Source: a virus | Virus record (IMG/VR): IMGVR_UViG_3300045988_176106 | DNA: 64,000 nt | Reading direction: 5' to 3' (one strand) | Shown here: positions 3,864 to 46,807 of the stretch, in pieces | How positions within the stretch are numbered: the stretch's first letter is position 1 | Layout: every line of letters begins with the position of its first letter | Notes under the pieces: generated by a model | Database searches by the model: none | Seen by the model: only the letters and a program-made list of their open reading frames with translations | Told to the model about the DNA's origin: nothing | Program-made: the position numbers and the translations under genes

Positions 3864-6800
3864 TTAAAAACCAATTGCATCAAATGTATCCATAACTTCT
3901 GACATACTATTTTCTGCATTTTCGCCTAAAGGTATTAGACCTTGACTTTGACCATAAATGGTAAAAATTGGGGAAAGCATACCACCAAAGAATGTATAAT
4001 CCACAATATGTTTAAACCACATTTGGATATCTGCATCACTTAAGTCAACTAAGGCACCTTTATTGTGCATACGTAAAAACTTATTGCACATTTCAAGGGC
4101 ATTGGTGTTAACTGCCCAATTTACAATACGACAAATAGAAACGGCAACTTCTCTTGAATAACCTAAGTCATTCTCGATACTTTCAATTACCTTTTTAACA
4201 CTCTTGTCGTCTTTTGTCATGTTTTTAAGATAGAAGACAGCATGAGAGCTAGCACCACCAGAAACATGTTTAATCGCATTAATTACACGATCTTCAAGAA
4301 CCATTGTGTAAATATGATCATAGGTCGACAAGTCTTCCTCCTTAATGCGAAGTTGAACCTTGCGTTTACGTTCCCACGGCACATAAGATTTAGGATCATT
4401 ATTACATGCCAGCCCATAATATAATTGAACTAACATATAAAATACCCATGCATCATTAGTGCCTGGACCAACTGCATTCTTAGCCATAGCTGATGAACAC
4501 AGAAACTCCATATAGGCATTATCACCAGGATGTTTAGGATAAATTGGAACGTAATACAATTCGTACTTTTTACTCCAATCAACATCTTCAATAGATGAAT
4601 ATTCGGAAAGAAGAAAATCTTCATCCCACTTCTTTTGATCTTCAGTAAAATATTCCAATTCAAATTGAGCCATCATTTCTTGCTGCTCAATTCCTGGGAT
4701 TGTACTAATTTGCAATAAGTCGCCATCGTTATCACTATGGCTACGTTTTACAATTTCAATAGAAACTAAAGCACAATATAAATTACCTTGTACATCCAGA
4801 TAGTCATTGACTGTCATTCCATAATTTTCTTGAAGATAGTCATTGAATTCATCAATTCCCCAAAGTTGGGAAATGATCATCTGTGAACGCCATAAAAATG
4901 GATTACGCAAAGTAAATGCATTTAATGGACGGAACTGGTCAAGCATTGCCTCTTCAGGAGTTTTATCATTTGGCTTGCCATAAATATATTCACGAATACT
5001 CTCAAGAATATTACGATCAAGAATTACGACTTTACCTTCAGGAACATATTTATCATGAACCTGTTTAAGATTTACACCTTTAAGGCTTGGCTGAATAAGG
5101 GATTTAACATAAGTTTGACCACCTAATTCAGTGCGATACAGCATTGATTTAATTGCATTTAAATAGCCACTCCATGCAGAAGGGCGCTTTTGATTACGTT
5201 CATTACGATGCGGGGCAATAGTAAAATACTGACTAGGGCCAGTAATTGCAGCACGAATGATTTTAGACAATTCAATAAGCATAGTTGGATATACGTATTG
5301 ACCATCATTTTGTTTACCGCAGAATTTATTCAAAATCTCTGCAGAAGGCACACGAATACTTGTACCAGAACGTACCTTACTTAAGTCGATATAAAACCCC
5401 TTATTGAATTCAGGATCCAATAATTTACTGCTAGTAGGAATAATAGCAGAACGACTCAAAACTAAGTCTTGTTCATTAAACATTGATTTTAATTCAACCA
5501 ATGTATAAGATGGATAATTGTCAACGTATTCAAATACACGACCTTCGTCTGATAAGATTTTTGCCAATTCTTCAACAATAGCCTTATCAGTTTTATCAAT
5601 ACAATTGTCTAAAATATACTGACCCAATGGAGAGTCTTTTGTCTGACAAATATATTTCAAACAATTAAATGACATGCCTTGACTTTTAATCTTGGCAAAA
5701 TGGCTACCTAATTCAGTATAAGAATACTGAACTAATCCATATTTAACGTTTTCGATTACGATAATTTCATCATCGTAACCATCAATACGCTTAACACGTT
5801 TTTCATATGTAGCAGTTGGCAATGAATCAACAGCAGCATTGATTTCCTCTTCGTTTAAACTATCAAGGTAATCTTTGCCATTATTATAATAGCCATATTT
5901 AAATGCAAAAGCAGCTTGAGCAAGACGAATAGTATTCATTTTGCCTTTAAGACTATTAATGCCGGCTACAATATCCACATCGAGGACTTTATCTTCTTTG
6001 CCGTCTTCGTGAATTTTAATTTTGCCACAACTACGCATAGTCTTAGTAACGCCTTTCAAGCCTGTTTGACTTGTAATGCGGGCATTACCTGCTTTATAAT
6101 AGGCAACATAATCAATACGAGCAGACCCATTATATCCTGATTCTTCAATAGATGTAATCTGAATGTGATCTACCATATCAATGTAAATTGACTCGCCACC
6201 ACGTGAGCCAATTTTAATATATCCACCTTTGCTGTAAATAGTTTCACCAACTTTTACGTCAATTTCGTCAAATTCAGTTTCAATATGACGAGGCGTGAAT
6301 ACAATTTCTTTGCCTACTTTTGGCGATACTTCAATTTCACCGCCAACTAAACGATACGATTCAAGCTCGATATCGTTATAAACCATAACTGCATCAACCA
6401 AAGTATTATCTTTGGTTACTAATTCGCCATCCTTTTCAATTACATCTTGTAAAAAGATAGCTTTAGATGGATTACTTACACCAAATGCATTGCCATTAAG
6501 ATGAGTCTTAAATCGTGCAGGTAAAGCTTGTCCAACTTTAAACAAGCTTGAATAACCTACAAAACCACCATTTTCGTCTCTGAATACTTGGAATCCAGGA
6601 GCTTGAAACTCTTTACCATTTTTAGAAATGATAATTTTATTTGATTCTGCAAGTATAGATTCACTTCCAGGAAGTACATTAAAGTACATCGCAGAAGCTT
6701 TAATGGCGCGATCAGATGGATTAAACAAAATTGGCAAGGCATCACCCATCACTTTGTCGTGATGCAAATATGTTAGAACCTTACTGTACTCATTATAAGG

Positions 6801-7320: not shown

Positions 7321-7752
7321 TTATCCATATAGGAAATGTCTTCCACGTTTCCCTTTAAATTTTACTTTATTGGATGGACGTGATCCATTAGAATTAAAAT
7401 AAAGACTTCCACTAGTAGAGTCTTGCCAATCACCTAAACGATATTTGGCATATTCAGATTCAACTTGTTCTGAAATCTTTTTATACAACCCTTGGTCTTT
7501 TTTACCTCCGGCCATTTTAGCCGTGGAGTATTGACCCTTTTTAATAAAATTAGCACAAACTCCATCAGGGAATTCATTACTTTTCATCCTATTAAACATT
7601 ACATCAGTAACAACTTTTATACCATGAGCACCTTCACCACGTGCCTCATAATAAGCCATTTCTGATAAACATTTAATTTCTTTAGCAAAACTTATAGATG
7701 GCATTGCTAATACCAATGCCAATATTTTCTTTCTCAAACTTAAATCCTCCAT
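7321..7752 (-). CDS. Cell-wall hydrolase, SleB/Hydrolase_2-like (candidate endolysin) with N-terminal signal sequence
   Basis: 143 aa. AYYEARGEGAHGIKVVTDVMFNRMKSNEFPDGVC...GQYS...GSLYFNS...GRHFLYG follows the SleB C-terminal domain pattern. N-terminus KKILALVLAMPSISFA. Confidence 0.8.
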   Translation of the reverse strand: MEDLSLRKKILALVLAMPSISFAKEIKCLSEMAYYEARGEGAHGIKVVTDVMFNRMKSNEFPDGVCANFIKKGQYSTAKMAGGKKDQGLYKKISEQVESEYAKYRLGDWQDSTSGSLYFNSNGSRPSNKVKFKGKRGRHFLYG

Positions 7753-7834: not shown

Positions 7835-8026
7835 CTAGGAGTCTAGTTGGAGAGATGGCACTAATAAAACTTTTTCAGAAAACATGCAATTAATATAATT
7901 AGCACATTTTCCACAACACGTAGTTGCACCTGTGTCAATAATCAAATCATCAACACTTTTATTCTTATCAATATAATCATTATTGATAGTGCTGGTGCTA
8001 ACATTATTACAAACACATACAACCAT
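7835..8026 (-). CDS. Bfd-like [2Fe-2S]-binding domain protein
   Basis: 63 aa. VCVCNNVS...(x28)...CCGKC matches the C-x-C...C-x-x-C pattern of bacterioferritin-associated ferredoxin. Confidence 0.65.
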   Translation of the reverse strand: MVVCVCNNVSTSTINNDYIDKNKSVDDLIIDTGATTCCGKCANYINCMFSEKVLLVPSLQLDS

Positions 8027-8100
8027 TATTATACCTCGATAAAGAATTTATATAAAATGCCATATCAATAGCATCTTGTATAAATAAATTAAATGGAGAA

Positions 8101-8132
8101 TGCGCCGGCGATCACATAAAGTGCGCCGACGC
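8101..8132 (-). terminator. GC-rich hairpin closing the RNA-gene cluster
   Basis: Minus RNA GUCGGCGCAC-UUUAU-GUG(AU)CGCCGGC, i.e. a CAC/GUG closing like the family, with a 2-nt bulge. Confidence 0.5.
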
Positions 8133-8139
8133 TATTCAG

Positions 8140-8212
8140 AGACAAACATAGGACTTGAACCTATATCATGGGTTTATATAACCCTATATGTTACCAATTA
8201 CAACAGTTTGCC
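8140..8212 (-). tRNA. tRNA-like gene with irregular anticodon arm (anticodon UAU/Ile if the loop is read UAUAUAA)
   Basis: Minus strand GGCAAAC-UG-UUGU-AAUUGGUA-ACAU...AUAGG-UUCAAGU-CCUAU-GUUUGUC-U. It has a 7-bp acceptor stem, a D-loop with GG, a canonical T-arm and a total of 72+1 nt. The anticodon stem needs a register shift (AGGGU/ACCCA with an A-A mismatch) and lacks U33. No CCA is encoded. Confidence 0.5.
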
Positions 8213-8215
8213 TAA

Positions 8216-8765
8216 AGTCAGGGGTACCCTGAGGTTGAGCTATAAGTGAATCGGCGAGTTAGGAGGGCCTATCACATTCAATGAACACATCTAGGATATA
8301 GCTCTTTATCCTAGAAGGGCCGATATAGTACCTCGGCAAGGTTTACGCGACCCGACAGCCCTTAGCATTTTGCTATTGGCAGTCTAGGGCATTTGCTACT
8401 ATCCAATAAGTATAGTAGTTTAACGACATTAGCATCCAATACCCATTTAACGATTGCTAATTGGTCGTATGGCTCAGGGTAGGAGACGGACCCATTATTG
8501 CCATAAATGCTATTTTGGGTCAACCCATAGCTGGATTTCTAGGACTACCCGGGTTTTACAACTACATTGAACTTATCCTAGCTCATCCAAATATAGTTGA
8601 TTTAATAGCACGTCTTAAGACGTACTACATAAATTTGTTTTCATCAGGCCGTCTTTCCGTTGCTGATGAACCAAATAGCAATTAATACAAATTGCTATGC
8701 TGTCAAGAAAGGACAATGGTATGCACCATTAATAAGGTTAAGCACCTTAGAGCTGCGGGGGAGAA
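8216..8765 (-). ncRNA. Candidate large structured RNA of unknown class (boundaries approximate)
   Basis: No credible ORF, and G+C visibly higher than the flanks. At least 13 local helices of 5-9 bp on the minus strand, e.g. 8715-8730, 8675-8698, 8640-8670, 8606-8627 (contains a G-U that is C-A on the plus strand), 8532-8589, 8468-8505, 8429-8460, 8396-8418, 8358-8390, 8291-8314, 8218-8232. Confidence 0.45.
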
Positions 8766-8866
8766 ATAATAAAATTATAAAGGAGTAAACACATTCAGAA
8801 ACCTTAAATTCTATGGAAGTCGCCACAAAATTCGATTCTTAAGGTATTTAAAACTTATGCAAAAAG

Positions 8867-8880
8867 TCGGTATATACCGA
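8867..8880 (-). terminator. Hairpin plus U-run ending the tmRNA transcription unit
   Basis: TCGGTATATACCGA followed on the minus strand by CTTTTTGC. Confidence 0.5.
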
Positions 8881-9470
8881 TATATGGATAAATTATTTCC
8901 ATGAAAAATATGCTTGTTTAAATTTCACTAGTTGGTAACTAGGTATGCCCAAACATATTTACTCTTTTATAATTGCTGGTTACGATTCCAGCTCTACCCA
9001 ATCGTAGACGATTACGAAACTTACTGAAGCACTAGCCGCAGTGTTAGAATTCTCGGACAGTTTCTGTTACCAGGTACTGTCCAAACCCTGTACATTTATG
9101 CTCAACTACCTAAATTAGGCAGCGGCGCGTACCATGTAAACATTATCGTTTGCATTTATTTTAAATTTTGCTTTTACGAAGCAACTCGTGCCGAGTAATT
9201 ATCCCTATTCATCGCTTGTCGAATTCCAATACAGCCCCATCAGAAGACATCTCATAAGACATTTTAACTCAATCACGATAACGTAATTAGGTTAAAAATA
9301 AACTGTATGGAATCGCTAACTCTTTTCAGAGTATAAATATCTTCGAAATGTCTTTTGGTGGAGCTGGCGGGAGTCGAACCCGCGTCCAAACAATCTTAAT
9401 GAATAACACCTTTACGGCAATTAATGAGCAAAAACTCATTAAGAAGTGTATACAATTATACTTTGGCCCA
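8881..9470 (-). ncRNA. ssrA: Circularly permuted (two-piece type) tmRNA gene: acceptor piece ~9356-9425+, intervening segment 9239-9355, coding piece from 9238 downward
   Basis: Minus strand 9387->9356 reads GGACGCGGGTTCGACTCCCGCCAGCTCCACCA (T-arm, acceptor 3' strand, CCA). 9238->9218 reads GGGGCTGTATTGGAATTCGAC (tmRNA 5' end, with GGGGCUG/CAGCUCC pairing including G3-U). P2-type pairing joins 9189-9219 with 9390-9419. A PK1-like pseudoknot and a tag ORF follow. Outer boundaries are uncertain. Confidence 0.8.
9115..9153 (-). other. tmRNA tag reading frame: ANDNVYMVRAAA*
   Basis: Resume codon GCA at 9153-9151 is preceded by AAAUAAAU. The frame reads GCA AAC GAT AAT GTT TAC ATG GTA CGC GCC GCT GCC TAA, and the stop lies in the loop of a CUGCC/GGUAG hairpin, as in known tmRNAs. 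Confidence 0.7.
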
Positions 9471-9600
9471 GTTAAAAAAAGTCGTTTGATATATCCGATG
9501 CATGATTACATGCTTATTGAGCTATTAAGAGTATACACTTTTTAATAAATTTTTACACAAAAATATTCATTTATATTTCAATGTGTTACAAGATTTTGTT

Positions 9601-9655
9601 TTTGTATGCATCATTTATACCAAATGTAAACCCGATATAAATAGATGCATACAAA
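9601..9655. repeat. Long inverted repeat (12 + 7 bp)
   Basis: TTTGTATGCATC (9601-9612) / GATGCATACAAA (9644-9655) is perfect, with an inner ATTTATA/TATAAAT pair. A T-run follows on the plus strand. Lies between 9696..10037 and the tmRNA gene. Confidence 0.7.
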
Positions 9656-9695: not shown

Positions 9696-10037
9696 TCAAT
9701 TTTCGTAATGAACACGTTGGTTTTTGTCCGGATACCATGCACCGCCTTTTGGATATACAACCCAAAATTCACGTGCAGAATCACGCACTGCAAACCGTTT
9801 TGTTCCGATTTGAACAACCGAAACAATCTTACGTGTCAAAATTTCGTCACCAACGCCTTTACCTGTGCATTTTTCATACGCACCGGTAGGACCAAATTGA
9901 TCCATAACAGGCTTGATATCAATGATCAAATCATCACCAACTTTAGGCACTTTAATGCCATTGAATTTAGGTTTGGAATTAGATTTGTGGTCAAAGGCAC
10001 GTCGAACGTGTGCTTTGGCCTTTTTAGTTTGAGTCAT
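9696..10037 (-). CDS. Hypothetical protein
   Basis: Start re-called at ATG 10037 (MTQTKKAKAHV...), 113 aa. The upstream part of the track ORF is low-complexity F/L-rich. Confidence 0.65.
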   Translation of the reverse strand: MTQTKKAKAHVRRAFDHKSNSKPKFNGIKVPKVGDDLIIDIKPVMDQFGPTGAYEKCTGKGVGDEILTRKIVSVVQIGTKRFAVRDSAREFWVVYPKGGAWYPDKNQRVHYEN

Positions 10038-10192
10038 TTTAAATAAATAAACTTTCAAAAAAAAGAAATGGAAGTGTACGTTTTTAAGGAAAACGCACAA
10101 ACCTATCTACCGGAAATCTAAAATGGAAACTACTCATACCAACGATGTGGCGTTAGTCCATTTTGTTGTTTTTTTTGCACTTGCGATCTGTT

Positions 10193-13987: not shown

Positions 13988-14350
13988 TTATGCAAACTTA
14001 CCAATATTTTTATTAGTAAATTTATTTAGCCAATTGGAAATCTTGAATTTGGGTTCATATTCAACCCATTTATAGGTACCATCTTCTTGCTTTTCGTAAC
14101 GAGCATAACCGTAAACCCGCGCGAGAATGAAAAGAGTAACACCAAAAATCAAACCAGTAGCTGCACCAATTACAAAACCAGACATAGTACCAGAAAAACC
14201 ACAAGCCATACCAATCAGCAATGAAAATGCTAAATCAACATAGGCTTCATATCCTAATACACGTTTTAACAACTTCGGCGATGCTTTAGCCAAAATAGAA
14301 ATAATGGCAACACTAGTAACTAGTGAACCAAATACAATAAGCCCAATCAT
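13988..14350 (-). CDS. Membrane protein
   Basis: 120 aa, three hydrophobic segments. Confidence 0.75.
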   Translation of the reverse strand: MIGLIVFGSLVTSVAIISILAKASPKLLKRVLGYEAYVDLAFSLLIGMACGFSGTMSGFVIGAATGLIFGVTLFILARVYGYARYEKQEDGTYKWVEYEPKFKISNWLNKFTNKNIGKFA

Positions 14351-14353
14351 GAC

Positions 14354-14467
14354 TTACCCTTTCTTTTGTAGTGACAAACCTTTAAGGACAGTAAAAGATA
14401 ACCATCCTAAAAACATAATAACAAACAGTCCAGACATATAGACTGAAATAGCAGTTTCAATTCCCAT
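14354..14467 (-). CDS. Small hydrophobic peptide (37 aa), below the track cutoff
   Basis: Hand translation MGIETAISVYMSGLFVIMFLGWLSFTVLKGLSLQKKG*. AAGGA lies 8 nt upstream, and the stop abuts the next start. Confidence 0.45.
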   Translation of the reverse strand: MGIETAISVYMSGLFVIMFLGWLSFTVLKGLSLQKKG

Positions 14468-14512
14468 ATTTAATCCTTTCTTAAAGTGGATATGGACAAA
14501 ACTTAATCAATA

Positions 14513-14538
14513 AAATATCGACACTAAAGTCGATATTT
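14513..14538 (-). terminator. Conserved stem-loop family copy (variant)
   Basis: AAATATCGAC-actaaa-GTCGATATTT, a perfect 10-bp stem, at the downstream (minus-sense) edge of the 1.2-kb ORF-free region. Confidence 0.6.
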
Positions 14539-14539
14539 A

Positions 14540-15750
14540 AATAAAATATTACAGGAATATACATATGCATATATACCCGCGCCACTTATTTCTCTATTGA
14601 TCAATTGTACATAAAATAAAATATACAATAAAAATAGAACAAACATAAAACAATAAAGCAATAATTAAATCTACACTAATCATAATAAAAAACACCTATA
14701 TAAGAATAAACAAATAAAAATACACTACAGGAGTACATAAATACATATACACCTATATAATAAGAATATACAACAAAGGCTATTCACATAGCCTTATTAC
14801 AATATAGTATTTAATCAATACAGGGATAGTTATACATATATAGTAATAGAAATACATTAATATAGGAATACATCTAGTACTGATTTAAATATCTATTTAG
14901 ATACTTTTTACCTGGTACAGCGATCAAAAATATATGTAATACAAGCCACTCTGTGGCTATAGATGTCAAAATAATTACACCTATATAGATACCAGTACAT
15001 ATTTTATAAATACCCTATTGCATTCTTATACTATATATACTATACTTATATATATTGTTAGAGAGTAGTCCTACTGGAGAGACTATAAACTCCTTAAGTG
15101 CATGGAAAGGCATACATATATTAGAATTTATCCCTTTTTATTCTTTATTTCCTGTATCGCATCAGTGCTTGTAGTATTCTTTTTAAAGGGTTCTTTGTCA
15201 ATGTATATTTATTTATACACTACAGAGATATTATACTTATTAGCGGCGTTTTATATCTAATAGGTGTACTATATAAGCAATGCTTGGTTCCTGAATTGGG
15301 CTGTGAAGCTGTAAGGTTACGTCCCCAGCGACATCACGTGGTGTGATGGGTATTAGCATATATAATATACTTGATGTAATCCCTGATAATATACTATTTC
15401 TTATTGTATATATTAGTATATATACTTAGTGAACAACTTAATTTTTAATTGCATCCTTTAAGTAGGAGCGCCCGCCGTATACTTATTTATAGTATTCGGT
15501 AATTTTGTCGTATCTGTACAATCTGTATTACTAATATTACAACACATGTCCCGCCGGCCCATGTGCTATTTTTATATCTGTCTTATATATACTGTATTGT
15601 ACACACTTATATAAACATACTATTGTATTTAATACGCTTATATATGTAAATAAAATGCAGCCAGTACCTCTTGTATTAAAAAATAGGTACTTCTTGTTGT
15701 AATCATTTATTAGTAAAGGGCTCGCTTACGCTCGCCCAGTATTGTATTAC
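14540..15750. other. 1.2-kb ORF-free, TATA-rich region with scattered GC-rich hairpins and short direct repeats
   Basis: No ORF of 60 aa or more. CACCTATATA x3 (14693, 14750, 14978). TACACTACAG x2 (14721, 15216). TATACTTA x4-5 (15045-15480). Hairpins at 14776-14795, 14944-14958, 15332-15348, 15544-15564. Confidence 0.6.
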
Positions 15751-15753
15751 CTT

Positions 15754-16014
15754 CTATATCAGAACAGTAATTAGCTTTCCTGTTAATACAGTTGCTATAT
15801 GTCCTAATACAATAGAGATTAGTATTAGTATTGTGATAAAGATTCGACTATTTTGTCGTTTCTTAAGCCACTTAATCTTATTAGCCGCGGCGGATAGATT
15901 AATTACTATCAGCGCCGTATATACTACTAATCCAATGATGTATAACAATCCAATAGGATTACTTACAATTGTGCTGTATAGCAGGTAATCCCAAACGCTT
16001 CCAAATACAAACAT
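15754..16014 (-). CDS. Membrane protein
   Basis: 86 aa, three hydrophobic segments, GAGG upstream. Confidence 0.75.
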   Translation of the reverse strand: MFVFGSVWDYLLYSTIVSNPIGLLYIIGLVVYTALIVINLSAAANKIKWLKKRQNSRIFITILILISIVLGHIATVLTGKLITVLI

Positions 16015-30539: not shown

Positions 30540-31190
30540 CCTTAACACACAAGCGCATAAATTGAGAGTATAATTCGCCATGTTAACTCGTTGAGGTTAG
30601 TATCTAGTCGGGATAAACTACGGCATCGGAACTAAAAGAGAGTTGACCTTATACCAAGTAGCTCATAGAATAATCGGTAGAGGCCGGTAGCGAAAGTATA
30701 ATGATCTCCCAAGATGTGGGCAAGCCTAGCTAGGGAGGTATCGAAAACTGTTTGTTGAAGTGGCGTAATTCTCCCTGTGTAAGCTCCCTTACTAAAAGTA
30801 ATACATAAAGAATTATGAAAGTTGGGCAGTATAAAAATAATGACCTGTTGCAAATAACGGATTATCCTCGAAATCGAGCCGTATGGTCAGACAGACAACT
30901 TTAGGGTTATATAGATAGTGCAATGAGATATAACCTAGTAACTTAAAGTTACTCGACTACAAATATAATGAACCAGAACTTAACAGAGTGTTGCGAAATA
31001 ACGACACTTGGAGTAATCAATATCCTGTTAGTTAAGACACGACAAAGTGTAATAGCTTACTTCTGATGATCACTTGGATCACTGCTTGATAATCGCAAAG
31101 GAAGTTACGAAAGTGGAACTGGGAATAACATGGCAGATACAGCTATATCTTTTTAGATGAAAGCCTTGCTTTGCTAGGCCTAATTGTATC
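30540..31190. ncRNA. Candidate structured RNA of unknown class (strand tentative, plus favoured)
   Basis: A 1.1-kb gap without a credible ORF. Helices at 30706-30737 (CTCCC/GGGAG), 30905-30935 (8 bp), 30938-30952 (6 bp), 30987-31008 (has a G-U valid only on the plus RNA), 31067-31081, and 31103-31120 (GAAA tetraloop). Confidence 0.35.
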
Positions 31191-31507: not shown

Positions 31508-32890
31508 ATGAGTAATGAATTCAATTACGGTAAAGGAATTCCTAAATCGGAATTAGATACTGTATTCAATTTGTCAGAACAACTGACAAATTTTAATAAA
31601 AGTAAAACAGTTGTAGAATCTGTTTTAGAAGATAAAATGAAATCCGTATCCTCTGGTAGTGATACTAATAAAACAATTCCAATTTTGTTGTCTTCACAAG
31701 CAATTTCTATTAGTGGAGATAAACTAACCAAAACAAATTATTTAAAAGCATTCGATATTGATGAAGATCAATACAAACATATAGCATTGACAGAAGATGA
31801 AGCAAAGAATCTTAATAAAAGTATTGCTAAGATGACTTCTGGTGGCGTAACAGCTGCTGCACCAATGATATGTAGAGGTTCCAAATGTCCTTTCTCTGAA
31901 ACCTGTGTAACAGGTGATACATTAGTATCTATGAGGTATGGAACAGCTAAGAAAATAAAAGATATAGTAGACAAAGATAAAATATACAGCTTTGACACAA
32001 AAACACAAGAAATCCGTAGTGATTTTGTTATAGGATCAGTTATTCCAACAGGTAGACGAGAAGTCTACACTGTTATTACTGAACATGGACATTCTTTAAA
32101 GGTTACAACAAACCATTTATTTTATGCATATAACGGAGATGTATATTCATATATCTCTATTGATGATGGGTTAGAAGTTGGACATAAGGTTTTAGTTACT
32201 GACTTATTTTATAATGAAGAACTAGAAGCAGATATAGAAAATGTGAATCAATATGGAGATCTTTTAGAATCAGAAATAGTAGCTATAGAGTATTCTGGTA
32301 TAGAGGATGTGTACGACATAACAGTAAATCTGAATTCTAATTTCTTTGCAAATGGTATCTTAGTTCACAATTGTGAACTTAATAAGATTAATAAAGCTCC
32401 TATAGGTTCACAATGTATATATGAACAAACATATTTAAGACAATCTATTGAGGGGTACCTAGAAGAGTTTAATGCAGATCCAAGCAGAATAACTGAAATG
32501 CATCTTATATCCGAATTATCAGAATTAGACCTATACGAAAGAAGAGCTACATTAATGTTAGCTCTACAAGACCAAAATATGTCTCAAGAAGATTTTTACG
32601 GATTTGATGCCAATGGTGGGCAAATAATAAAAGAAGATGTATCTAAATATTTCAATATAAAAGAGCGTATCAAAAAGAATCGCTTAAAAATATTAGAAAC
32701 ATTAATGGCCACAAGAAAAGACGCTGCAAAAGTTGCAGTAGATACACTTCAAAGTGGAGTATCATCAGAAATGGCATCATTAGCATCCAAAGTTGATATG
32801 ATATTAAAAAATGTCGGAAATTCAAGCGGTGGTCATTATGTAGATCCAGCAATTCAGGAATTCTTAAATGCCAAGAAAAAAGAGCAATAA
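31508..32890 (+). CDS. Intein-interrupted Cys4 protein, first gene of the packaging operon (small-terminase role is a guess)
   Basis: 460 aa. The spliced product would be ~304 aa, with CRGSKCPFSET-C...(x13)...C around the splice junction. Confidence 0.8.
   Translation: MSNEFNYGKGIPKSELDTVFNLSEQLTNFNKSKTVVESVLEDKMKSVSSGSDTNKTIPILLSSQAISISGDKLTKTNYLKAFDIDEDQYKHIALTEDEAKNLNKSIAKMTSGGVTAAAPMICRGSKCPFSETCVTGDTLVSMRYGTAKKIKDIVDKDKIYSFDTKTQEIRSDFVIGSVIPTGRREVYTVITEHGHSLKVTTNHLFYAYNGDVYSYISIDDGLEVGHKVLVTDLFYNEELEADIENVNQYGDLLESEIVAIEYSGIEDVYDITVNLNSNFFANGILVHNCELNKINKAPIGSQCIYEQTYLRQSIEGYLEEFNADPSRITEMHLISELSELDLYERRATLMLALQDQNMSQEDFYGFDANGGQIIKEDVSKYFNIKERIKKNRLKILETLMATRKDAAKVAVDTLQSGVSSEMASLASKVDMILKNVGNSSGGHYVDPAIQEFLNAKKKEQ
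31904..32371 (+). mobile_element. Mini-intein (156 aa, no homing-endonuclease domain)
   Basis: Block A is CVTGDTLVSM (Cys1 at 31904). Block B is LKVTTNHLF. Blocks F/G are VYDITVNLNSNFFANGILVHN, followed by the +1 Cys at 32372. Confidence 0.9.
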
Positions 32891-33323
32891 GAATAACAAG
32901 AATAATGGTATATATTTCAATAAAAATGATATGTATAAGAGCGGTATGTTTAAGTCTGTCAAAAATAGACAGTATATGAAATACCGCTCAGCATATGAAT
33001 ATGCATTTTTTGAAAAACTTGAATCTGACCCAAATGTTATAAAATATTTGGCTGAAGCTATACATATACCATATGTGGACATAGACTTAAAAAAGAGAAC
33101 ATATATTCCTGATGTCCTGGTTCTTTATAAAGATGGCAGAATGGAGCTTTGCGAGGTTAAACCAACTATAATGCTTAAAGATCCAAATGTGCAACTAAAA
33201 GCAAGGGCAGCAGTAAGGAAAATAAAATCTACTGGCAAAAATATGTCATTCAGATTTATAACTGAAAATGACCTATTTAAGAGTAATAAAGAATATTTAG
33301 CTATACTGGATAAAATAAAATGA
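32868..33323 (+). CDS. PD-(D/E)XK nuclease, TnsA-N-terminal-like
   Basis: 151 aa. YRSAYEYAFFEKLESDPNVIKY...RTYIPDVLVLY...ELCEVKP matches the Y-x-S-x-x-E...Y-x-PD...E-x-K layout. 23-nt overlap with the intein host gene. Confidence 0.65.
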   Translation: MPRKKSNKNNKNNGIYFNKNDMYKSGMFKSVKNRQYMKYRSAYEYAFFEKLESDPNVIKYLAEAIHIPYVDIDLKKRTYIPDVLVLYKDGRMELCEVKPTIMLKDPNVQLKARAAVRKIKSTGKNMSFRFITENDLFKSNKEYLAILDKIK

Positions 33324-34993: not shown

Positions 34994-36098
34994 TAACGAA
35001 ACATTAAAACAGCGTAAATCCAAGGCGTTTCAAAGAAAAGTTGATCAAATAGATTTACAATGGGACCAAACTGGTAGAGGTTCATCCTTTAAAAAGAATA
35101 TAGATTATGCTAAAACTATATTCAAGGTTGATAATAATGGTGCTCTTAATACAGGTCTTAGATTTGACAAAAGGAAGATAACAGGTGGATTTGAAGATTT
35201 GGCATCAAAATATGACAGTATGAAAAAGTCTGGCATATCAAATATAGAAGATGTCATGAAGATAAGGTCACAATCTGCAGCAAGGGAACAAACATTTGCA
35301 CAGAGATGGCTTGGTTACGGACATAAAGATTTTCAAACACTTACAACTCCAAGATCAGGGGGAGGTATTGGTAATTTATATATGATGCCTTCTTATGAAG
35401 CATTTGCAACAGCCGGTGTTGGAACTCACTTAAATAGGGCAGCAGCATTCGCATCTGGTATCGGGTTAAAAGATGACCTTATGAACTCAATAGGTGTTGC
35501 AACTGCACATCAAAAGAAAATTATGGCATCAAAAAGTGTTGGCAAGCTTGACAAGTTATTTGCAGGTGTTGCGCCAATGATGGGGGCAGTGTTTTCAGGT
35601 GCAGAAGCATTACCATATTTGACAGGAGAGAAAGAGTCCACCATTACGGATAATGCTATAGTTAGCGTTGCAGGAATGGCTTTATCTTTAGCTGCAGGAA
35701 CATATGGATTTAGGGTTGGAAAAGAACTTACACATGCTGCAACATCGCTTATTCCTAAATTCTCAAAACAAGGTCAAACATTAGGTAAGTTAAGTAAGGC
35801 CCGTGGAGGCCTTAAAATGGCAACTGGTGTAACAGGTGGTCTAGCTGGAGGTATTGGCGCTACATTGGCTGTAGATATGGCTGTAGACATGTTTAAAACA
35901 GCTTCTGACCAGAATAACTCTATCAATAGAGTTAAGAACGCACTGTATAGAAACGATATGGTTGGCAATACATCTGTAAACACTAATCAGCTGTTAACTA
36001 GTAGACAAAAGGCTATGTCAGCATTAAGTAAATCATCATTGAACGATAAAGCATATATAATGGGCAACGAAGCAGCAATACTAAAAGGAATATATTAA
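34983..36098 (+). CDS. Gly/Ala-rich protein (glycine zippers)
   Basis: 371 aa, GVTGGLAGGIGATLAVDMAVDM. Confidence 0.8.
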   Translation: MSIDNETLKQRKSKAFQRKVDQIDLQWDQTGRGSSFKKNIDYAKTIFKVDNNGALNTGLRFDKRKITGGFEDLASKYDSMKKSGISNIEDVMKIRSQSAAREQTFAQRWLGYGHKDFQTLTTPRSGGGIGNLYMMPSYEAFATAGVGTHLNRAAAFASGIGLKDDLMNSIGVATAHQKKIMASKSVGKLDKLFAGVAPMMGAVFSGAEALPYLTGEKESTITDNAIVSVAGMALSLAAGTYGFRVGKELTHAATSLIPKFSKQGQTLGKLSKARGGLKMATGVTGGLAGGIGATLAVDMAVDMFKTASDQNNSINRVKNALYRNDMVGNTSVNTNQLLTSRQKAMSALSKSSLNDKAYIMGNEAAILKGIY

Positions 36099-38050
36099 TG
36101 GGTGTTATACCAATAGTTGATGAAAGTAAAATAAAATCTCCTGTAGAAATAGATATTTCAGATGATAAAGTTGCAGGCAGCATACTTGGACTATATGAAA
36201 CATACTGGAAAGATTATCTAAAGAAAAAGAACTATAATACAGATCCTAATGAAATGTGCAGAATCTGCCAGATGAATCAGATTAAAAAGTTTGGTGAGAT
36301 AACAATAGAATGTAGTGGTCCAAAAACAGTTGTAGGCAAAATGCCAGATGAGATTAAGGCTAATTTCTCAGACGAAGAACTTGATAAGATAGAGCAAACT
36401 AAAAATCCATATGCATGGGCAGATGCAAATATAGATATAGATCAGCCAGACCCTGATAAAAGACTTTTTGCAAGAAGATGGCATCAAGAAATGATGGTAG
36501 TATGCTCTGCCAAAAAGAAAACTATTAGATGTGGACGACGTGCCGGTAAAACATTTGGTTTAGCAATAGACATCGTAGACAGACTAATAAAAAATGAAAA
36601 CTACCAAATCCTCGTAGTGACCCCATTTGAATCTCAAGCAAAAGAGATAACAGATACAGTAAGAAAACTATTAAGAAAAATAAATCCAGAAATAGGATCA
36701 TGGAATTCTTTGGTTACACAGTCTGTAGCATCACCTTATCAAAAGATAACACTAAAAAATGGTTCTACATTAAAAGCATTTACAGCAGGTAATGATGGTG
36801 GATCAATTCGTGGTCAAGGTGCAAACTGGCTTATAATTGACGAGGCAGACTTTTTAACTAAGGCTGCATTTGACTCTGTAATAGCAATTCTGATGGATAA
36901 AAAAGACACAGAATTTACATGTACGTCTACACCTATGGGTGAGAATATATTATTCAAATTATCAAATTCTAAAGAGTATAAAGAATTCCACTTCCCATCA
37001 TTCGTAATCCCTCATTACAGTGATGAGATGGATAAAGACCTTAGGTCTTCTACCTCTGTAATGGGCTATATACAAGAGATCCAAGCAGAGTATGGTGTAG
37101 CAGATAATGCAGTTTTCCAAACTGAATTTATCACAAGAGCAGAAGAGACAAAACTATCAGCACCAATAGTTGATGTACTGATGAATAGACAAGATTATAT
37201 ATTAATACTTGGATGTGACTGGAACGCGGACAAAGTTGGTACAAGAATATGTATTGTTGCATATTCTAAAAAAGAGGATAAGGTTTTTGTATGCTCTATG
37301 GACAATGTGAGAAAAGAGGGGTGGACTCAAGTTGCAGCTGTTGAAAAAATAAAAGAGCTTAATAGGCAGTATATTCCTGACTTTATATTTGTTGATGAGG
37401 GTTTCGGTGAAGCAAACGTGCAACAATTAAAACTTGTTGCGCTAGACTCATATGGAAAACTTCCAAAGGATCATCCAGATTTAAGATTGGCGAATGTACA
37501 ACCAGTAAACTTTTCATCTACATTGGACCTAGTGGATGTTGTTACGGGAGAGATACGTAAAAAATACTATAAAAACTTTATGGTAGAAACAGTGAAAAGG
37601 ATGCTTGAAAAAGGTCTTATATCGTTAAATAATAAGTTAGCAGAACCCATAGTAGAGCAAATGAAGGGCTATGTTGTAAAATCTAGGAATGCTTCTGGAA
37701 GAGAGATATATGAAGCTAAGAACCCAGAAGTTGGTGATCATGACCTAGATGCCTTTATGATAGCGGTATGCGGCCTTCACATGAAATATGAATCAATCCT
37801 TGACACTAGAAGATATTCAGAGTATACAATTTTGCCTTTTGAAAAACAGACGTCTAAGGGTTATAATAGTCAAACTACTATAGAAAAAAGAAAAACAACT
37901 GATGAATTATCCAGAGATGCTAAAAAACTTTATGGAAGAGCTGGTTTAGTTAGACCAAGTTCTGGAAGAGCTGGTAAGCTTATTACTAGAAGTAGTGCAT
38001 ACGGTAAATTCAAGGATTATAGATCAAATATGAGTAAAACATATAGATAG
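36098..38050 (+). CDS. Terminase large subunit
   Basis: 650 aa. Walker A is CGRRAGKTF, Walker B is NWLIIDEADF. Nuclease acidic residues at ILGCDWN, FVDEGFGE, GDHDLDAFM. Confidence 0.9.
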   Translation: MGVIPIVDESKIKSPVEIDISDDKVAGSILGLYETYWKDYLKKKNYNTDPNEMCRICQMNQIKKFGEITIECSGPKTVVGKMPDEIKANFSDEELDKIEQTKNPYAWADANIDIDQPDPDKRLFARRWHQEMMVVCSAKKKTIRCGRRAGKTFGLAIDIVDRLIKNENYQILVVTPFESQAKEITDTVRKLLRKINPEIGSWNSLVTQSVASPYQKITLKNGSTLKAFTAGNDGGSIRGQGANWLIIDEADFLTKAAFDSVIAILMDKKDTEFTCTSTPMGENILFKLSNSKEYKEFHFPSFVIPHYSDEMDKDLRSSTSVMGYIQEIQAEYGVADNAVFQTEFITRAEETKLSAPIVDVLMNRQDYILILGCDWNADKVGTRICIVAYSKKEDKVFVCSMDNVRKEGWTQVAAVEKIKELNRQYIPDFIFVDEGFGEANVQQLKLVALDSYGKLPKDHPDLRLANVQPVNFSSTLDLVDVVTGEIRKKYYKNFMVETVKRMLEKGLISLNNKLAEPIVEQMKGYVVKSRNASGREIYEAKNPEVGDHDLDAFMIAVCGLHMKYESILDTRRYSEYTILPFEKQTSKGYNSQTTIEKRKTTDELSRDAKKLYGRAGLVRPSSGRAGKLITRSSAYGKFKDYRSNMSKTYR

Positions 38051-45583: not shown

Positions 45584-46807
45584 ATGTCTACAACAGAAGA
45601 AAAACTGAATATCAGAGACGAACTACAGACCTTACACTCTCTGTTTAAAAACAACGGTCGAGATATCACTGGTGAAGTGATGTCAATTAAAGATACATTG
45701 GCAACTCCGAATATCGCTACAATTATGAAGCGTGTTATTGAGGAAGTTGTTCTTGAAGGTATCGAGCCAAATCTTATTGGTCAATCATTGCTGCAACGTA
45801 TCGAATTCAATGGTCCATATGTTACTGAAGTTAAATTCCGTACACTAGGCGCAATTGATGTTGGTGATATCTCTATGGCGGAAGGCCAAGAATATCCAGA
45901 ATTCAGCACCACTAACGGTGGTGGACAAGTAAGCGCCATTATCGGTAAATACGGTTTGGCTGTCCGAATCACTGAAGAAATGCTGAATAACAACCAATGG
46001 GACGTTGTTGGTTATACCCTGCGCGAACTTGGTAAAGCTATGGCTCGTGCACGTGAAGAAAACATCTTCAATGTAATTAATAACGCGGGTGTTGTTGTAT
46101 TTGATAACTTGCACCCTAACCAATCTCTGTTAGGTCGTACAACTGGTCGTGATCTGTCTGGTGCTGGTAACGGTTCATTTACAGCTGACGATATGTATGA
46201 TATGTATGCATCAACTCTGGAACGCGGATTTACTCCTGACGTAATTCTGTGTCACCCATTGGCTTGGGCAACATTTGCTAAAGATCCAGTTCTGCGTGAA
46301 TATGCTCTGCAAGGTGGTGGTTTGAATGACTGGTTCAACACAATGCCTAATGCTAACGTAGGTCAAGGTAAATTTATTCCTGAAGTTTGGCGCAATGCTA
46401 ACCGCCTGTCTGGTGATACTGCTTTCAATCCTACTGCAAATGAACGCGTTGGTACACAAGAAAGTACATTCAACTTCCCATCATACTTCCCTGGAACTGC
46501 TGGTCTGCGCATTATAGCATCTCCACATGTACGTTTTGATCCAGTAGCCAAAACTACTGACATCATCATGATTGATACTAAAGAACTTGGTGCTCTGTGT
46601 GTTATCGAGAATCCTACTATGGATGAATGGGATGACCCAGCACGAGACATCAAAAAAGTTAAAATCCGTGAACGCTATGGTATTGCAATCTTTAACGAAG
46701 GACAAGCTATTTCTGTTGCTCGCAATGTAAGCATCGAGCCTAATGAAATTGTTCTGCCTCCTCAAGCAATTGTTAATAATATCCCACGTATTCAACGTAA
46801 AGACTAA
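45584..46807 (+). CDS. Major capsid protein (HK97-fold expected)
   Basis: 407 aa, follows the protease/scaffold, G+C-richer, and a strong terminator follows. The call rests on synteny and size. Confidence 0.7.
   Translation: MSTTEEKLNIRDELQTLHSLFKNNGRDITGEVMSIKDTLATPNIATIMKRVIEEVVLEGIEPNLIGQSLLQRIEFNGPYVTEVKFRTLGAIDVGDISMAEGQEYPEFSTTNGGGQVSAIIGKYGLAVRITEEMLNNNQWDVVGYTLRELGKAMARAREENIFNVINNAGVVVFDNLHPNQSLLGRTTGRDLSGAGNGSFTADDMYDMYASTLERGFTPDVILCHPLAWATFAKDPVLREYALQGGGLNDWFNTMPNANVGQGKFIPEVWRNANRLSGDTAFNPTANERVGTQESTFNFPSYFPGTAGLRIIASPHVRFDPVAKTTDIIMIDTKELGALCVIENPTMDEWDDPARDIKKVKIRERYGIAIFNEGQAISVARNVSIEPNEIVLPPQAIVNNIPRIQRKD

What the first reader, a model, noticed from the sequence alone, without database searches (positions are those of the whole stretch)
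8881..9470. Phage-borne circularly permuted (two-piece type) tmRNA gene with its own tag ANDNVYMVRAAA
- **Ends.** On the minus strand, 9387->9356 spells GGACGCGGGTTCGACTCCCGCCAGCTCCACCA. That is a T-arm, acceptor 3' strand and encoded CCA, very close to the E. coli ssrA 3' end as I remember it. 9238->9218 spells GGGGCTGTATTGGAATTCGAC, the canonical tmRNA 5' end. GGGGCUG pairs with CAGCUCC, including the Ala-identity G3-U.
- **Permuted order.** The 5' half lies downstream of the CCA end in the direction of transcription. This is the gene order known from the two-piece tmRNAs of Alphaproteobacteria, some Betaproteobacteria and marine cyanobacteria.
- **Inter-piece helix.** The two halves carry a compensatory P2-type helix: ACAA/ATGAATA/TTAC(tc)GGCA at 9219-9189 against TGCC-GTAA/TATTCAT/TTGT at 9419-9390.
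- **Coding piece.** It has a PK1-like pseudoknot (ACGA-g-TTGC-t-TCGT-aaaa-GCAA), a GCA resume codon at 9153, a 12-codon tag and a stop inside a hairpin loop.
- **Intervening segment.** The 117-nt segment is closed by AAGACAT/ATGTCTT, bringing the CCA end and the GGGG start together like an excisable loop.

A lytic-looking phage carrying a permuted tmRNA would be unusual. It also hints at the host clade and at manipulation of trans-translation.
Basis: partly seen in the sequence, partly recalled or inferred. Interest (0 to 1): 0.8.

Follow-up and report, generated by a model that had tools for sequence, protein, structure and literature searches.

The report
Phage-encoded two-piece tmRNA gene
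A large, uncultured phage from the human mouth carries its own circularly permuted (two-piece) tmRNA, the RNA that frees stalled ribosomes; the gene is real and conserved, but similar genes already sit in many other phages, so it is a new example, not a new kind.

Summary
ARAGORN calls a permuted tmRNA at 9024-9448 (-) with tag ANDNVYMVRAAA. Rfam tmRNA_permuted scores 118 bits (cut-off 47) and alpha_tmRNA 105 bits (cut-off 50).

The window is a phage (terminase, portal, capsid). Its lineage has ~177-187 kb genomes at ~33% GC and comes from human oral metagenomes. Ten related contigs carry the gene at the same place.

Compensatory changes preserve the acceptor stem and the inter-piece P2 helix, and G3·U is invariant. 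The 117-nt intervening segment folds into a stable rod (z = -4.5).

The gene is not unusual in kind. Published work already counts 53 two-piece phage tmRNAs. I also found related permuted genes in cultured Alcaligenes, Xanthomonas and Stenotrophomonas phages, mostly unannotated, and 32 more in IMG/VR contigs. Alcaligenes phage QDWS595 encodes ANDNVYAAAA. It shares ANDNVY with this tag through four synonymous codon differences, so the tag peptide is under selection.

The gene form does not indicate the host clade. RNase HI points to a beta/gamma-proteobacterial host, which is not proven. No SmpB gene was found in window positions 1-47475.

The one odd feature is the (R/C)AAA tag end instead of the usual LAA.

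Verdict: a new member of a known kind, of moderate interest.

The parts
9455..9460 (-). Possible -10 box TATAAT about 13 nt upstream of the 5' hairpin. The promoter is not established.
   Evidence: Read directly from the sequence. The strict sigma-70 scan found no full promoter here. In the second subgroup the box is CATATT. A TGTATAC(A/T)CTT motif occurs twice, at 9444-9454 and 9527-9537.
9421..9442 (-). 5' hairpin of the acceptor piece: UUAAUGAGU-UUUU-GCUCAUUAA.
   Evidence: It matches the 5' hairpin of the Rfam alpha_tmRNA model. 94.9% of cells pair, with U.G->C-G and A-U->G.U changes.
9387..9419 (-). 5' strand of the inter-piece helix P2. UGCCG is at 9419-9415, UAUUCA at 9405-9400 and UUG-U-UUG at 9393-9387.
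   Evidence: RF04321 alignment. Compensatory C-G->U-A in P2c in L003, and one-sided wobble-preserving changes in P2a and P2b. The two-piece cofold reproduces the helix.
9367..9383 (-). T arm: GCGGG / UUCGACU / CCCGC.
   Evidence: Invariant in 11 lineage copies. Shared with the Alcaligenes, Xanthomonas and Stenotrophomonas phage copies, which have loop UUCGACU or UUCGAUU.
9356..9366 (-). Acceptor 3' strand CAGCUCC, discriminator A and encoded CCA. This is the 3' end of the acceptor piece.
   Evidence: The strand pairs with GGGGCUG. The G3.U pair is invariant. Pair 5 changes G-C->A-U in 5 copies, and further covariants occur in other phages.
9239..9355 (-). 117-nt intervening segment that must be excised. 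It is a long rod (AAGACAUUUCGAAGAUAUU paired with AAAUGUCUUAUGAGAUGUCUU) with two inner hairpins, one of them ACUCU-GAAA-AGAGU.
   Evidence: MFE -33.1 kcal/mol, z = -4.53, 0 of 200 shuffles as stable. RNAalifold predicts the rod and an inner hairpin with a compensatory G-C->A-U change. Both ends are 100% conserved while the middle drifts.
9232..9238 (-). Acceptor 5' strand GGGGCUG. This is the 5' end of the coding piece and the expected RNase P site.
9189..9231 (-). D-loop analogue (UAUUGGAAUUCGAC) and the 3' strand of P2. CAA-G-CGA is at 9218-9212, UGAAUA at 9211-9206 and CGGC(A) at 9193-9189.
   Evidence: RF04321 alignment, pair counts and cofold.
9168..9189 (-). PK1-like H-type pseudoknot: ACGA-g-UUGC-u-UCGU-aaaa-GCAA.
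Evidence: All 8 pairs are invariant in 11 copies, so covariation neither supports nor contradicts it.
9115..9153 (-). Tag reading frame: GCA resume codon, ANDNVYMVRAAA, then a TAA stop.
   Evidence: ARAGORN. The resume region and the GCUGCCUAA end align to the Rfam consensus. Lineage variants are ANDDVYMVRAAA and ANDNVYMVCAAA. ANDNVY is shared with Alcaligenes phage QDWS595 through 4 synonymous codon differences.
9106..9122 (-). Hairpin holding the stop codon: CUGCCUA-AUU-UAGGUAG.
   Evidence: Invariant.
9055..9090 (-). Pseudoknot after the tag. GGACAGU pairs with ACUGUCC, and upstream CAGG pairs with CCUG in the loop. It contains ACCUGGUAACAGAAAC.
   Evidence: It aligns to the conserved ACCuGGCAACAGAA element of alpha_tmRNA. 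One G-C->G.U change occurs.
8928..9054 (-). Extended 3' domain of the coding piece, with several hairpins. It is almost invariant across the lineage and lies beyond ARAGORN's 3' end.
   Evidence: Near-100% conservation in 11 copies. Its fold is z = -2.05. No Rfam family, including riboswitches, matches it.
8861..8880 (-). Intrinsic terminator: UCGGUAUAUACCGA followed by CUUUUU.
   Evidence: Terminator scan. Conserved in all copies.
8139..8212 (-). tRNA-Ile(UAU) about 650 nt downstream of the terminator. It is an accessory neighbour, not part of the tmRNA.
   Evidence: ARAGORN and Rfam. It is present only in the window and in L015, and the surrounding stretch diverges in relatives.

Best explanation
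This is a functional, phage-encoded, circularly permuted ssrA gene.

**Transcription and layout (inferred from the sequence).** One minus-strand transcript runs from about 9447 to the terminator at 8880-8861. In order it contains a 5' hairpin, the 5' strand of P2, the T arm, the acceptor 3' strand with encoded CCA, a 117-nt rod-shaped intervening segment, the acceptor 5' strand GGGGCUG, the 3' strand of P2, PK1, the tag frame, and a long structured 3' domain.

**Processing (inferred, by analogy with bacterial two-piece tmRNA).** Host tRNA-processing enzymes remove the intervening rod. RNase P cuts at G9238, and 3' trimming proceeds back to the CCA at 9356. This leaves an acceptor piece of about 90 nt and a coding piece of about 370 nt. 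The acceptor stem and P2 hold the two pieces together.

**Action (inferred).** Host AlaRS charges the RNA through G3.U and the A discriminator. Host SmpB and EF-Tu deliver it to ribosomes stalled on broken mRNAs. Translation resumes at GCA and appends ANDNVYMVRAAA.

**Benefit to the phage (inferred).** During infection, host mRNA decay or host nuclease defences create non-stop complexes, so keeping ribosomes recycling would help. The tagged fragments are probably sent to proteolysis. The non-canonical AAA end may make that step weaker or dependent on an adaptor.

**Shown versus inferred.** The gene's anatomy, its conservation, covariation, and selection on the tag peptide are shown. Expression, processing, charging and tagging are inferred.
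For: - **Detection.** ARAGORN calls a permuted tmRNA with this tag. RF04321 scores 118 bits and RF01849 105 bits, both far above their cut-offs.
- **Phage context.** Large terminase, portal and major capsid protein are present. The gene lies internal to recurrent 177-187 kb contigs.
- **Retention.** It is kept at the same locus in 10 further contigs of two subgroups that differ by about 13-17% in flanking DNA. The coding piece is the most conserved, or second most conserved, 200-nt block: 96.5% against about 50-95% elsewhere.
- **Covariation within the lineage.** Acceptor pair 5 changes G-C->A-U in 5 copies. P2c changes C-G->U-A. Ten one-sided changes all preserve pairing. 99.4% of cells pair, against 36-46% in slid controls.
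- **Covariation across phages.** Five different complementary acceptor-stem variants occur, and G3.U is always kept.
- **Two-piece pairing.** The cofold reproduces the tRNA-like domain and P2: -104.6 kcal/mol against -89.1 kcal/mol for the pieces folded apart.
- **Intervening rod.** z = -4.53.
- **Terminator.** A conserved intrinsic terminator follows the gene.
- **Selection on the tag.** ANDNVY is shared with Alcaligenes phage QDWS595 although 4 of 6 codons differ synonymously. Within the lineage there are two synonymous changes (GAT->GAC, CGC->CGT), and the resume and stop codons are invariant.
- **Precedent.** Two-piece tmRNAs are processed by tRNA enzymes (PMC11915505), and phage-encoded two-piece tmRNAs are documented (PMC9004378).
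Against: - There are no expression, processing or aminoacylation data.
- No sigma-70-type promoter was detected by the strict scan.
- No SmpB gene was found in the ORFs scanned from window positions 1-47475. The system must therefore rely on host SmpB, and the host is unknown.
- PK1, the stop-codon hairpin and the 3' domain are invariant, so covariation does not test them.
- The tag ends in (R/C)AAA, whereas all 32 other viral permuted tmRNAs sampled end in [L/M/I]AA. Proteolytic targeting is therefore uncertain.
- The alpha_tmRNA score is less than half that of a bona fide alphaproteobacterial gene: 105 against 237 bits.
Confidence: 0.85

Rival explanations
1. The RNA is a decoy rather than a rescuer. 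The phage tRNA-like domain soaks up host SmpB, AlaRS or EF-Tu and thereby inhibits host trans-translation. Tagging would be irrelevant.
For: A TLD-only phage tmRNA (mycobacteriophage DS6A type) inhibits endogenous tmRNA when expressed in E. coli (PMC11915505, PMC4131195). No phage SmpB was found in the part of the window scanned. The tag has a non-canonical C-terminus.
Against: The full mRNA-like domain is retained and is the most conserved part of the locus. The resume codon, the frame and the stop codon are invariant. The peptide ANDNVY is conserved between two very different phages despite 4 synonymous codon differences, which implies the frame is translated.
Confidence: 0.07
2. The gene is a relic or an integration-site mimic. 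The ssrA-like 3' end would serve as an attP core for integration into a host ssrA gene, or the whole gene would be a decaying capture from a host.
For: The last 37-40 nt resemble gammaproteobacterial ssrA 3' ends, which temperate Klebsiella, Salmonella and Escherichia phages carry as att fragments.
Against: A complete permuted gene is present, not a 3' fragment. No integrase family was found in the ORFs scanned. Conservation is higher than in the flanks, and compensatory changes argue for purifying selection on the RNA.
Confidence: 0.03
3. The contig is not a phage. The gene would be the chromosomal ssrA of a low-GC bacterium that happens to lie next to a prophage.
For: IMG/VR contigs sometimes include host flanks, and tmRNA genes are common integration sites (PMC11915505). 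One capsid fragment of this lineage was binned with a Veillonella MAG.
Against: The gene lies tens of kb inside recurrent 177-187 kb contigs, and a few contigs of about 356-360 kb are roughly twice that size. Both flanks consist of small phage-type ORFs with uniform ~33% GC and no housekeeping genes. Veillonella is a Firmicute, a group in which permuted tmRNA is not known (prior knowledge).
Confidence: 0.02

Closest known systems
Permuted tmRNA of Alcaligenes phage vB_Af_QDWS595 (Schitoviridae, OK149171.2, about 55.0-55.35 kb; not annotated in the record)
   Same: It has the same gene order and an identical T arm (GCGGG-UUCGACU-CCCGC). The P2a/T-arm/CCA stretch is about 90% identical. The tag starts ANDNVY and ends AAA (ANDNVYAAAA). 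It sits in a lytic-type phage next to tRNA genes.
   Different: The phage is unrelated, a 70-kb N4-like podovirus. Its intervening segment is 74 nt, not 117 nt, and the tag is shorter. Rfam's best clan model is beta_tmRNA (93.8 bits) rather than alpha_tmRNA. It lacks the ACCUGGUAACAGAAAC pseudoknot in the same form.
Permuted tmRNAs of Xanthomonas and Stenotrophomonas phages: X1, BUDD, Rb1, DLP_6 and Menderavirus members such as Marzo
   Same: All have a permuted order, a GCGGG-UUCGAUU-CCCGC T arm and G3.U. Intervening segments are long in some (107-127 nt). They sit in large lytic phages, often within tRNA clusters.
   Different: The tags differ: AANDADYSVARYA, AANDDSYTVRIAA, ANDDSFAPMAIAA and ANDDNFRPALRLAA. 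They score as beta_tmRNA or reach threshold only on tmRNA_permuted. The hosts are known Gammaproteobacteria from soil and water.
Two-piece tmRNAs of marine phages (OM43 phage Melnitz, pelagimyophages, cyanophages), Buchholz et al. 2022, PMC9004378
   Same: These are phage-encoded two-piece ssrA genes. Their gene type need not match the host clade. Some IMG/VR copies sit next to tRNA-Ile(UAU), as here.
   Different: They are marine. Some carry a glutamine riboswitch in the 3' domain, and none is detected here. No sequence similarity was detectable by blastn. Their tags end in LAA-type motifs.
Alphaproteobacterial two-piece tmRNA (Rfam RF01849; Caulobacter, Keiler et al. 2000)
   Same: RF01849 is the best-scoring clan model at 105 bits. 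Shared features are the 5' hairpin, the UAAA and AUUAAG motifs in the 5' strand of P2, the UGAU leader before GGGG, the AUAAAUGCAAACGAU resume region and the ACCUGGNAACAGAA element.
   Different: The score is under half that of a real alphaproteobacterial gene (237 bits). The T loop here is canonical UUCGACU, not the alpha consensus. The intervening segment is 117 nt against 38 nt in the alphaproteobacterial MAG compared. The 3' domain is longer. The gene is encoded by a phage.
One-piece tmRNAs of mycobacteriophages (Bxz1 group) and Bacillus phage G; TLD-only gene of DS6A (PMC4131195)
   Same: These are also phage-borne ssrA genes presumed to act with host SmpB.
   Different: They are standard one-piece genes or truncated ones, not permuted.

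Membership tests
tmRNA (ssrA), any gene form | tRNA-Ala-like acceptor stem of 7 bp with G3.U70, an A discriminator and a CCA end | tested here: met
   GGGGCUG pairs with CAGCUCC, followed by A and CCA. The G.U pair is invariant in 11 copies, and the other pairs covary.
tmRNA (ssrA), any gene form | T arm with a canonical T loop, and a D-loop analogue (GG..UUCGAC) | tested here: met
   GCGGG-UUCGACU-CCCGC and UAUUGGAAUUCGAC.
tmRNA (ssrA), any gene form | Tag reading frame with an Ala resume codon, no start codon, an A-rich upstream stretch and an in-frame stop | tested here: met
   UUUAAAAUAAAU-GCA, then 12 codons and UAA. The frame aligns to the Rfam consensus at both ends. Selection at the peptide level is seen against QDWS595.
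tmRNA (ssrA), any gene form | Pseudoknot PK1 between P2 and the resume codon | tested here: inconclusive
   The ACGA/UCGU and UUGC/GCAA pairings are possible, but all 8 pairs are invariant, so there is no covariation test.
tmRNA (ssrA), any gene form | Proteolysis tag ending in a hydrophobic residue followed by AA (LAA type) | tested here: not met
   The tag ends RAAA (CAAA in L015). All 32 other viral permuted tmRNAs sampled end in [L/M/I]AA, and LAA is the common motif (PMC9382460). This is a typical feature rather than a strict defining one. QDWS595 also ends in AAA.
Permuted (two-piece) tmRNA, Rfam RF04321 | The acceptor 3' half with CCA lies upstream of the acceptor 5' half on the same strand, separated by an intervening segment | tested here: met
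   The 3' half is at 9387-9356 and the 5' half at 9238-9218, with a 117-nt gap. ARAGORN calls tmRNA*, and RF04321 scores 118.3 bits against a cut-off of 47. There is no second 3' half in the window.
Permuted (two-piece) tmRNA, Rfam RF04321 | Inter-piece helix P2 holds the two RNAs together | tested here: met
   100% of cells pair in P2a, P2b and P2c. One compensatory change and five one-sided pairing-preserving changes occur. The cofold gains 15.5 kcal/mol.
Permuted (two-piece) tmRNA, Rfam RF04321 | The precursor is cleaved into two mature RNAs that are not religated | not testable with these tools
   This needs RNA end mapping. The structured, end-conserved intervening rod is consistent with excision.
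Permuted (two-piece) tmRNA, Rfam RF04321 | Works with SmpB | tested here: inconclusive
   No SmpB (PF01668) hit was found among the ORFs scanned from window positions 1-47475. The remaining ~120 kb of the genome and the host were not examined.
Alphaproteobacterial subtype (RF01849) | Scores as alpha_tmRNA and shares subtype-specific sequence and structure | tested here: inconclusive
   The score of 105 bits exceeds the cut-off of 50 and is the best in the clan. A true alphaproteobacterial gene scores 237 bits. The T arm matches phage copies that Rfam types as beta_tmRNA.

The most novel reading that the evidence does not exclude
A sublineage of phage-borne two-piece tmRNAs, comprising this oral phage and Alcaligenes phage QDWS595, has kept the adaptor-binding-like ANDNVY part of the tag but replaced the ClpX-binding LAA end with AAA.

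Under this reading the phage runs its own variant of trans-translation inside a host that has one-piece tmRNA. Ribosomes would be rescued, while the fate of the tagged products would be rerouted. Degradation might become weaker, depend on an SspB-like adaptor, or go through another protease. This could spare phage proteins or outcompete the host tmRNA.

Nothing in my data excludes this. The AAA end is conserved in all 11 copies and in QDWS595.
Probability: 0.15. Interest if true: 0.6.

Novelty: new member of a known kind. Interest (0 to 1): 0.33.

Why it matters
- **Extends the known habitat.** It adds a widespread human-oral, ~183-kb phage lineage to the phages known to carry two-piece tmRNA. 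Its capsid protein is seen unchanged on 144 contigs. Published examples were described as overwhelmingly marine or aquatic.
- **Reveals an annotation gap.** Following it up showed that several cultured Alcaligenes, Xanthomonas and Stenotrophomonas phages in GenBank carry related permuted tmRNA genes that are not annotated.
- **Warns against host prediction from gene form.** These phage genes share a tRNA-like domain and blur the alpha/beta subtype boundary. The gene form should therefore not be used to predict the host.
- **Offers a testable variation.** The conserved AAA-ending tag is a small, testable departure in how a phage might tune ribosome rescue and tagging.

None of this changes the picture of what phage tmRNAs are.

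Tried and rejected
- **Near and distant DNA searches of GenBank phages.** The window's first 25 kb found no related phage, only the 52-nt tRNA-like stretch. The tmRNA alone matched only T-arm/CCA stretches. That lead later proved useful.
- **Genome scan with the alpha-type pseudoknot element.** It found only three high-GC Alphaproteobacteria MAGs at 59-65% GC, which cannot be the host.
- **Search for a shared promoter motif.** TGTATACWCTT occurs twice upstream of the gene but is not enriched across the window. The sigma-70 scan found no promoter.
- **Riboswitch in the conserved 3' domain, as in Melnitz.** No Rfam hit, even at E <= 10.
- **SmpB in the window.** None was found in the ORFs scanned from positions 1-47475. 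ORFs from 47483 onward were not scanned.
- **Host clue from the BFD-like small ORF.** Only copies from the same phage lineage matched.
- **Literature on HOLDH RNA and on oral jumbo phages.** Nothing usable.
- **Founding two-piece tmRNA papers.** PMC516066 and PMC16621 are not held.
- **A 117-nt intervening segment as unusual.** Rejected. Viral permuted tmRNAs range from 10 to 159 nt.
- **The Rfam-induced 4-bp P2b.** It fares worse on the MAFFT alignment (87% paired). The extended 7-bp version from the cofold is also preserved once a 1-nt deletion is taken into account, so the middle of P2 remains ambiguous.
Full report
**1.

- The T arm, acceptor 3' strand and encoded CCA run 9387->9356.
- GGGGCTGTATTGGAATTCGAC runs 9238->9218, downstream in the direction of transcription.
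- A 117-nt segment (9355->9239) lies between them.
- A GCA codon at 9153 opens a 12-codon frame ending in TAA at 9117-9115.

ARAGORN independently calls a permuted tmRNA (tmRNA*) at 9024..9448 (-) with tag ANDNVYMVRAAA*. Rfam at curated thresholds gives tmRNA_permuted RF04321 at 118.3 bits (cut-off 47) and alpha_tmRNA RF01849 at 105 bits (cut-off 50). No second T-arm/acceptor-3' half exists anywhere in the window, so there is no hidden conventional 3' end.

**2. Context: a phage from the human mouth**

The window encodes a large terminase (36098-38050), a portal (41222-43006) and a major capsid protein (45584-46807). It also encodes an RNase HI (481-921) and a SleB/T5-type cell-wall hydrolase (7321-7752). 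GC content is about 26-41%.

No close relative exists among 50,697 GenBank phage records. The nearest cultured relatives, by terminase and capsid, are Acinetobacter jumbo phage ME3 (42% and 33% amino-acid identity) and the Bacillus 0305phi8-36 group.

Related contigs in IMG/VR and public metagenomes are 177-187 kb. The capsid protein is found unchanged on 144 contigs. Record names identify human oral metagenomes.

No integrase and no SmpB were found among the ORFs scanned from positions 1-47475.

**3. The gene is conserved and its helices covary**

Ten other contigs of the lineage carry the gene at the same position. Their tags are ANDNVYMVRAAA, ANDDVYMVRAAA or ANDNVYMVCAAA.

Conservation is above background.
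- Against the closest relative, the 600-nt locus differs at 3 positions, while the flanks differ by 5-7%.
- Against the more distant subgroup, the coding piece is the most or second most conserved 200-nt block of a 10-kb stretch: 96.5% against about 50-95% elsewhere.

I wrote out a 79-pair structure on the 11-sequence alignment. It covers the 5' hairpin, P2a/b/c, T arm, acceptor stem, PK1, stop-codon hairpin, the pseudoknot after the tag, and the intervening rod.
- 99.4% of cells pair, against 36-46% when partners are slid.
- Acceptor pair 5 changes G-C->A-U in five copies.
- A P2c pair changes C-G->U-A in one copy.
- Ten one-sided changes all preserve pairing.
- Only one base pair, at the foot of the 5' hairpin, is lost.

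The lineage is shallow. PK1, the stop-codon hairpin and the 3' domain never vary, so covariation does not test them.

A two-strand fold of the putative mature pieces reproduces the acceptor stem, T arm and P2. It is 15.5 kcal/mol better than the pieces folded apart.

Both survive the observed substitutions.

**4. The intervening segment and the transcription unit**

The intervening segment is a long irregular hairpin that continues the acceptor stem. Both AUGUCUU repeats pair with AAGACAUUUCGAAGAUAUU. It folds at -33.1 kcal/mol with z = -4.53, and none of 200 shuffles folds as well. Its two ends are invariant while the middle drifts at the background rate. One inner hairpin shows a compensatory change. 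This fits an excised spacer whose ends carry processing signals.

Conservation runs well beyond ARAGORN's 3' end, down to a conserved intrinsic terminator at 8880-8861. The coding piece would therefore be about 370 nt, with an extra structured 3' domain that matches no Rfam family.

A perfect TATAAT sits at 9460-9455, but no full sigma-70 promoter was detected.

**5. Comparison with what is known**

Phage tmRNAs are known, including two-piece ones.
- Buchholz et al. found tmRNA in 402 of 18,146 phage genomes. Of 133 unique forms, 53 were two-piece, and 50 of those 53 came from marine or aquatic phages. They also showed that phage Melnitz carries an alpha-type gene although its host is not an alphaproteobacterium (PMC9004378).
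- The 2025 tmRNA database lists 79 phage sequences and created RF04321 (PMC11915505).

My own searches add to this.
- The short blastn matches to the tRNA-like domain led to related permuted genes in cultured phages. These are Alcaligenes phage vB_Af_QDWS595, Xanthomonas phages X1, BUDD and Rb1, and Stenotrophomonas phages DLP_6 and Marzo. Of the six records inspected, only Marzo annotates the gene; one search also showed tmRNA/ssrA labels on a few further Stenotrophomonas phage records.
- All of these share the T arm GCGGG-UUCGA(C/U)U-CCCGC with the window copy.
- Across them the acceptor stem appears in five mutually complementary versions, always with G3.U.
- Intervening segments in viral copies range from 10 to 159 nt, so 117 nt is unremarkable.

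Rfam types the Alcaligenes and Stenotrophomonas copies as beta_tmRNA (94-104 bits) and the window copy as alpha_tmRNA (105 bits). A genuine alphaproteobacterial gene scores 237 bits. The subtype label is therefore soft.

**6. The tag**

QDWS595 encodes ANDNVYAAAA. The first six residues are identical to the window tag, although four of the six codons differ synonymously: GCA/GCC, AAC/AAT, AAT/AAC and TAC/TAT. That is the signature of selection on the peptide. It argues that the frame is translated and that the RNA is a working tmRNA, not only an SmpB decoy.

The C-terminus is unusual. (R/C)AAA occurs in all 11 lineage copies and AAA in QDWS595. All 32 other viral permuted tmRNAs sampled end in [L/M/I]AA, and LAA is the common ClpX-recognition motif (PMC9382460). 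Whether this weakens or reroutes proteolysis is open.

**7. Host**

- RNase HI is 61-68% identical to enzymes of Neisseriaceae (Eikenella, Neisseria, Wielerella, Bergeriella) and of several Gammaproteobacteria.
- The hydrolase resembles those of T5-like phages of enterobacteria.
- The relatives of the tRNA-like domain sit in phages of Xanthomonadales and Alcaligenes.
- One capsid fragment was binned with a Veillonella MAG.

A beta- or gammaproteobacterial oral host is the best guess, and it is not shown. By established knowledge such hosts have one-piece tmRNA.

**8. Verdict**

The finding is real and correctly interpreted. It is a new member of a known kind. The modest points of interest are:
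- the human-oral habitat;
- the AAA-ending tag shared with one Alcaligenes phage;
- the extended conserved 3' domain;
- the by-product that several GenBank phages carry unannotated permuted tmRNA genes.

Noticed in passing
window 30582-30952 (+): A full-length match to Rfam HOLDH RNA (RF02997): 322.4 bits against a cut-off of 319.4, E 2e-86. This large structured RNA of unknown function lies in the gap between the leftward and rightward gene blocks, just upstream of an intein-containing ORF.
   Followed up: partly
window 8139-8212 (-) and surroundings 8078-8432: tRNA-Ile(UAU) is present in the window and in L015 but absent from the other related contigs. The surrounding ~350 nt are only 60-80% alignable in relatives, which marks a small replacement or indel hotspot just downstream of the tmRNA.
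   Followed up: partly
window 14350-15754: A 1.4-kb AT-rich stretch has no ORF of 60 aa or more and carries many short TATATA-rich direct and inverted repeats. Alignments to relatives break at 14498-14526. It could be a replication origin or a regulatory region.
   Followed up: partly
window 31508-32890 (+) and 32868-33323 (+): The first ORF carries an intein (Intein_splicing 5.9e-15 and Hint). The next ORF carries a TnsA-like endonuclease N-terminal domain (1.3e-09). Both are mobile-element-type genes lying between the HOLDH RNA and the terminase.
   Followed up: no
L141 (OK149171.2, about 55.0-55.35 kb), L142 (OQ427096.1), L146 (ON758385.1), L144 (KU682439.2), L145 (PQ569993.1): The GenBank records of Alcaligenes phage vB_Af_QDWS595, Xanthomonas phages X1, BUDD and Rb1, and Stenotrophomonas phage DLP_6 contain permuted tmRNA genes. 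ARAGORN calls tmRNA* and RF04321 scores 77-137 bits. The records do not annotate them, and in BUDD a hypothetical protein is annotated over the site.
   Followed up: yes
window 9605-9650 (-): A long imperfect inverted repeat (TGCATCTATTTATA...TATAAATGATGCA) lies between the upstream ORF (9696-10100) and the tmRNA locus. It is picked up only as spurious microRNA-like Rfam hits and may be a terminator or an operator.
   Followed up: no
L018 (WBZS01000211.1, 102-kb contig, 35% GC), 4143-4470 (-): A different low-GC metagenomic contig carries a permuted tmRNA with the same pseudoknot element but an odd predicted tag, GDTSTVPA. Its origin, bacterium or phage, was not examined.
   Followed up: no
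window 7835-8026 (-): A 63-aa ORF with a BFD-like [2Fe-2S]-binding domain (PF04324, precomputed) lies between the hydrolase and the tRNA. Its only detectable homologues are in the same phage lineage.
   Followed up: partly
L143 720-1037 and L145 696-1036: ARAGORN additionally calls overlapping 'standard' tmRNAs with implausible tags (APDLGSDASA, AGPRGCNWIV...). These reuse the same acceptor 3' half as the permuted call and are probably false positives. They are a caution for automated annotation.
   Followed up: no
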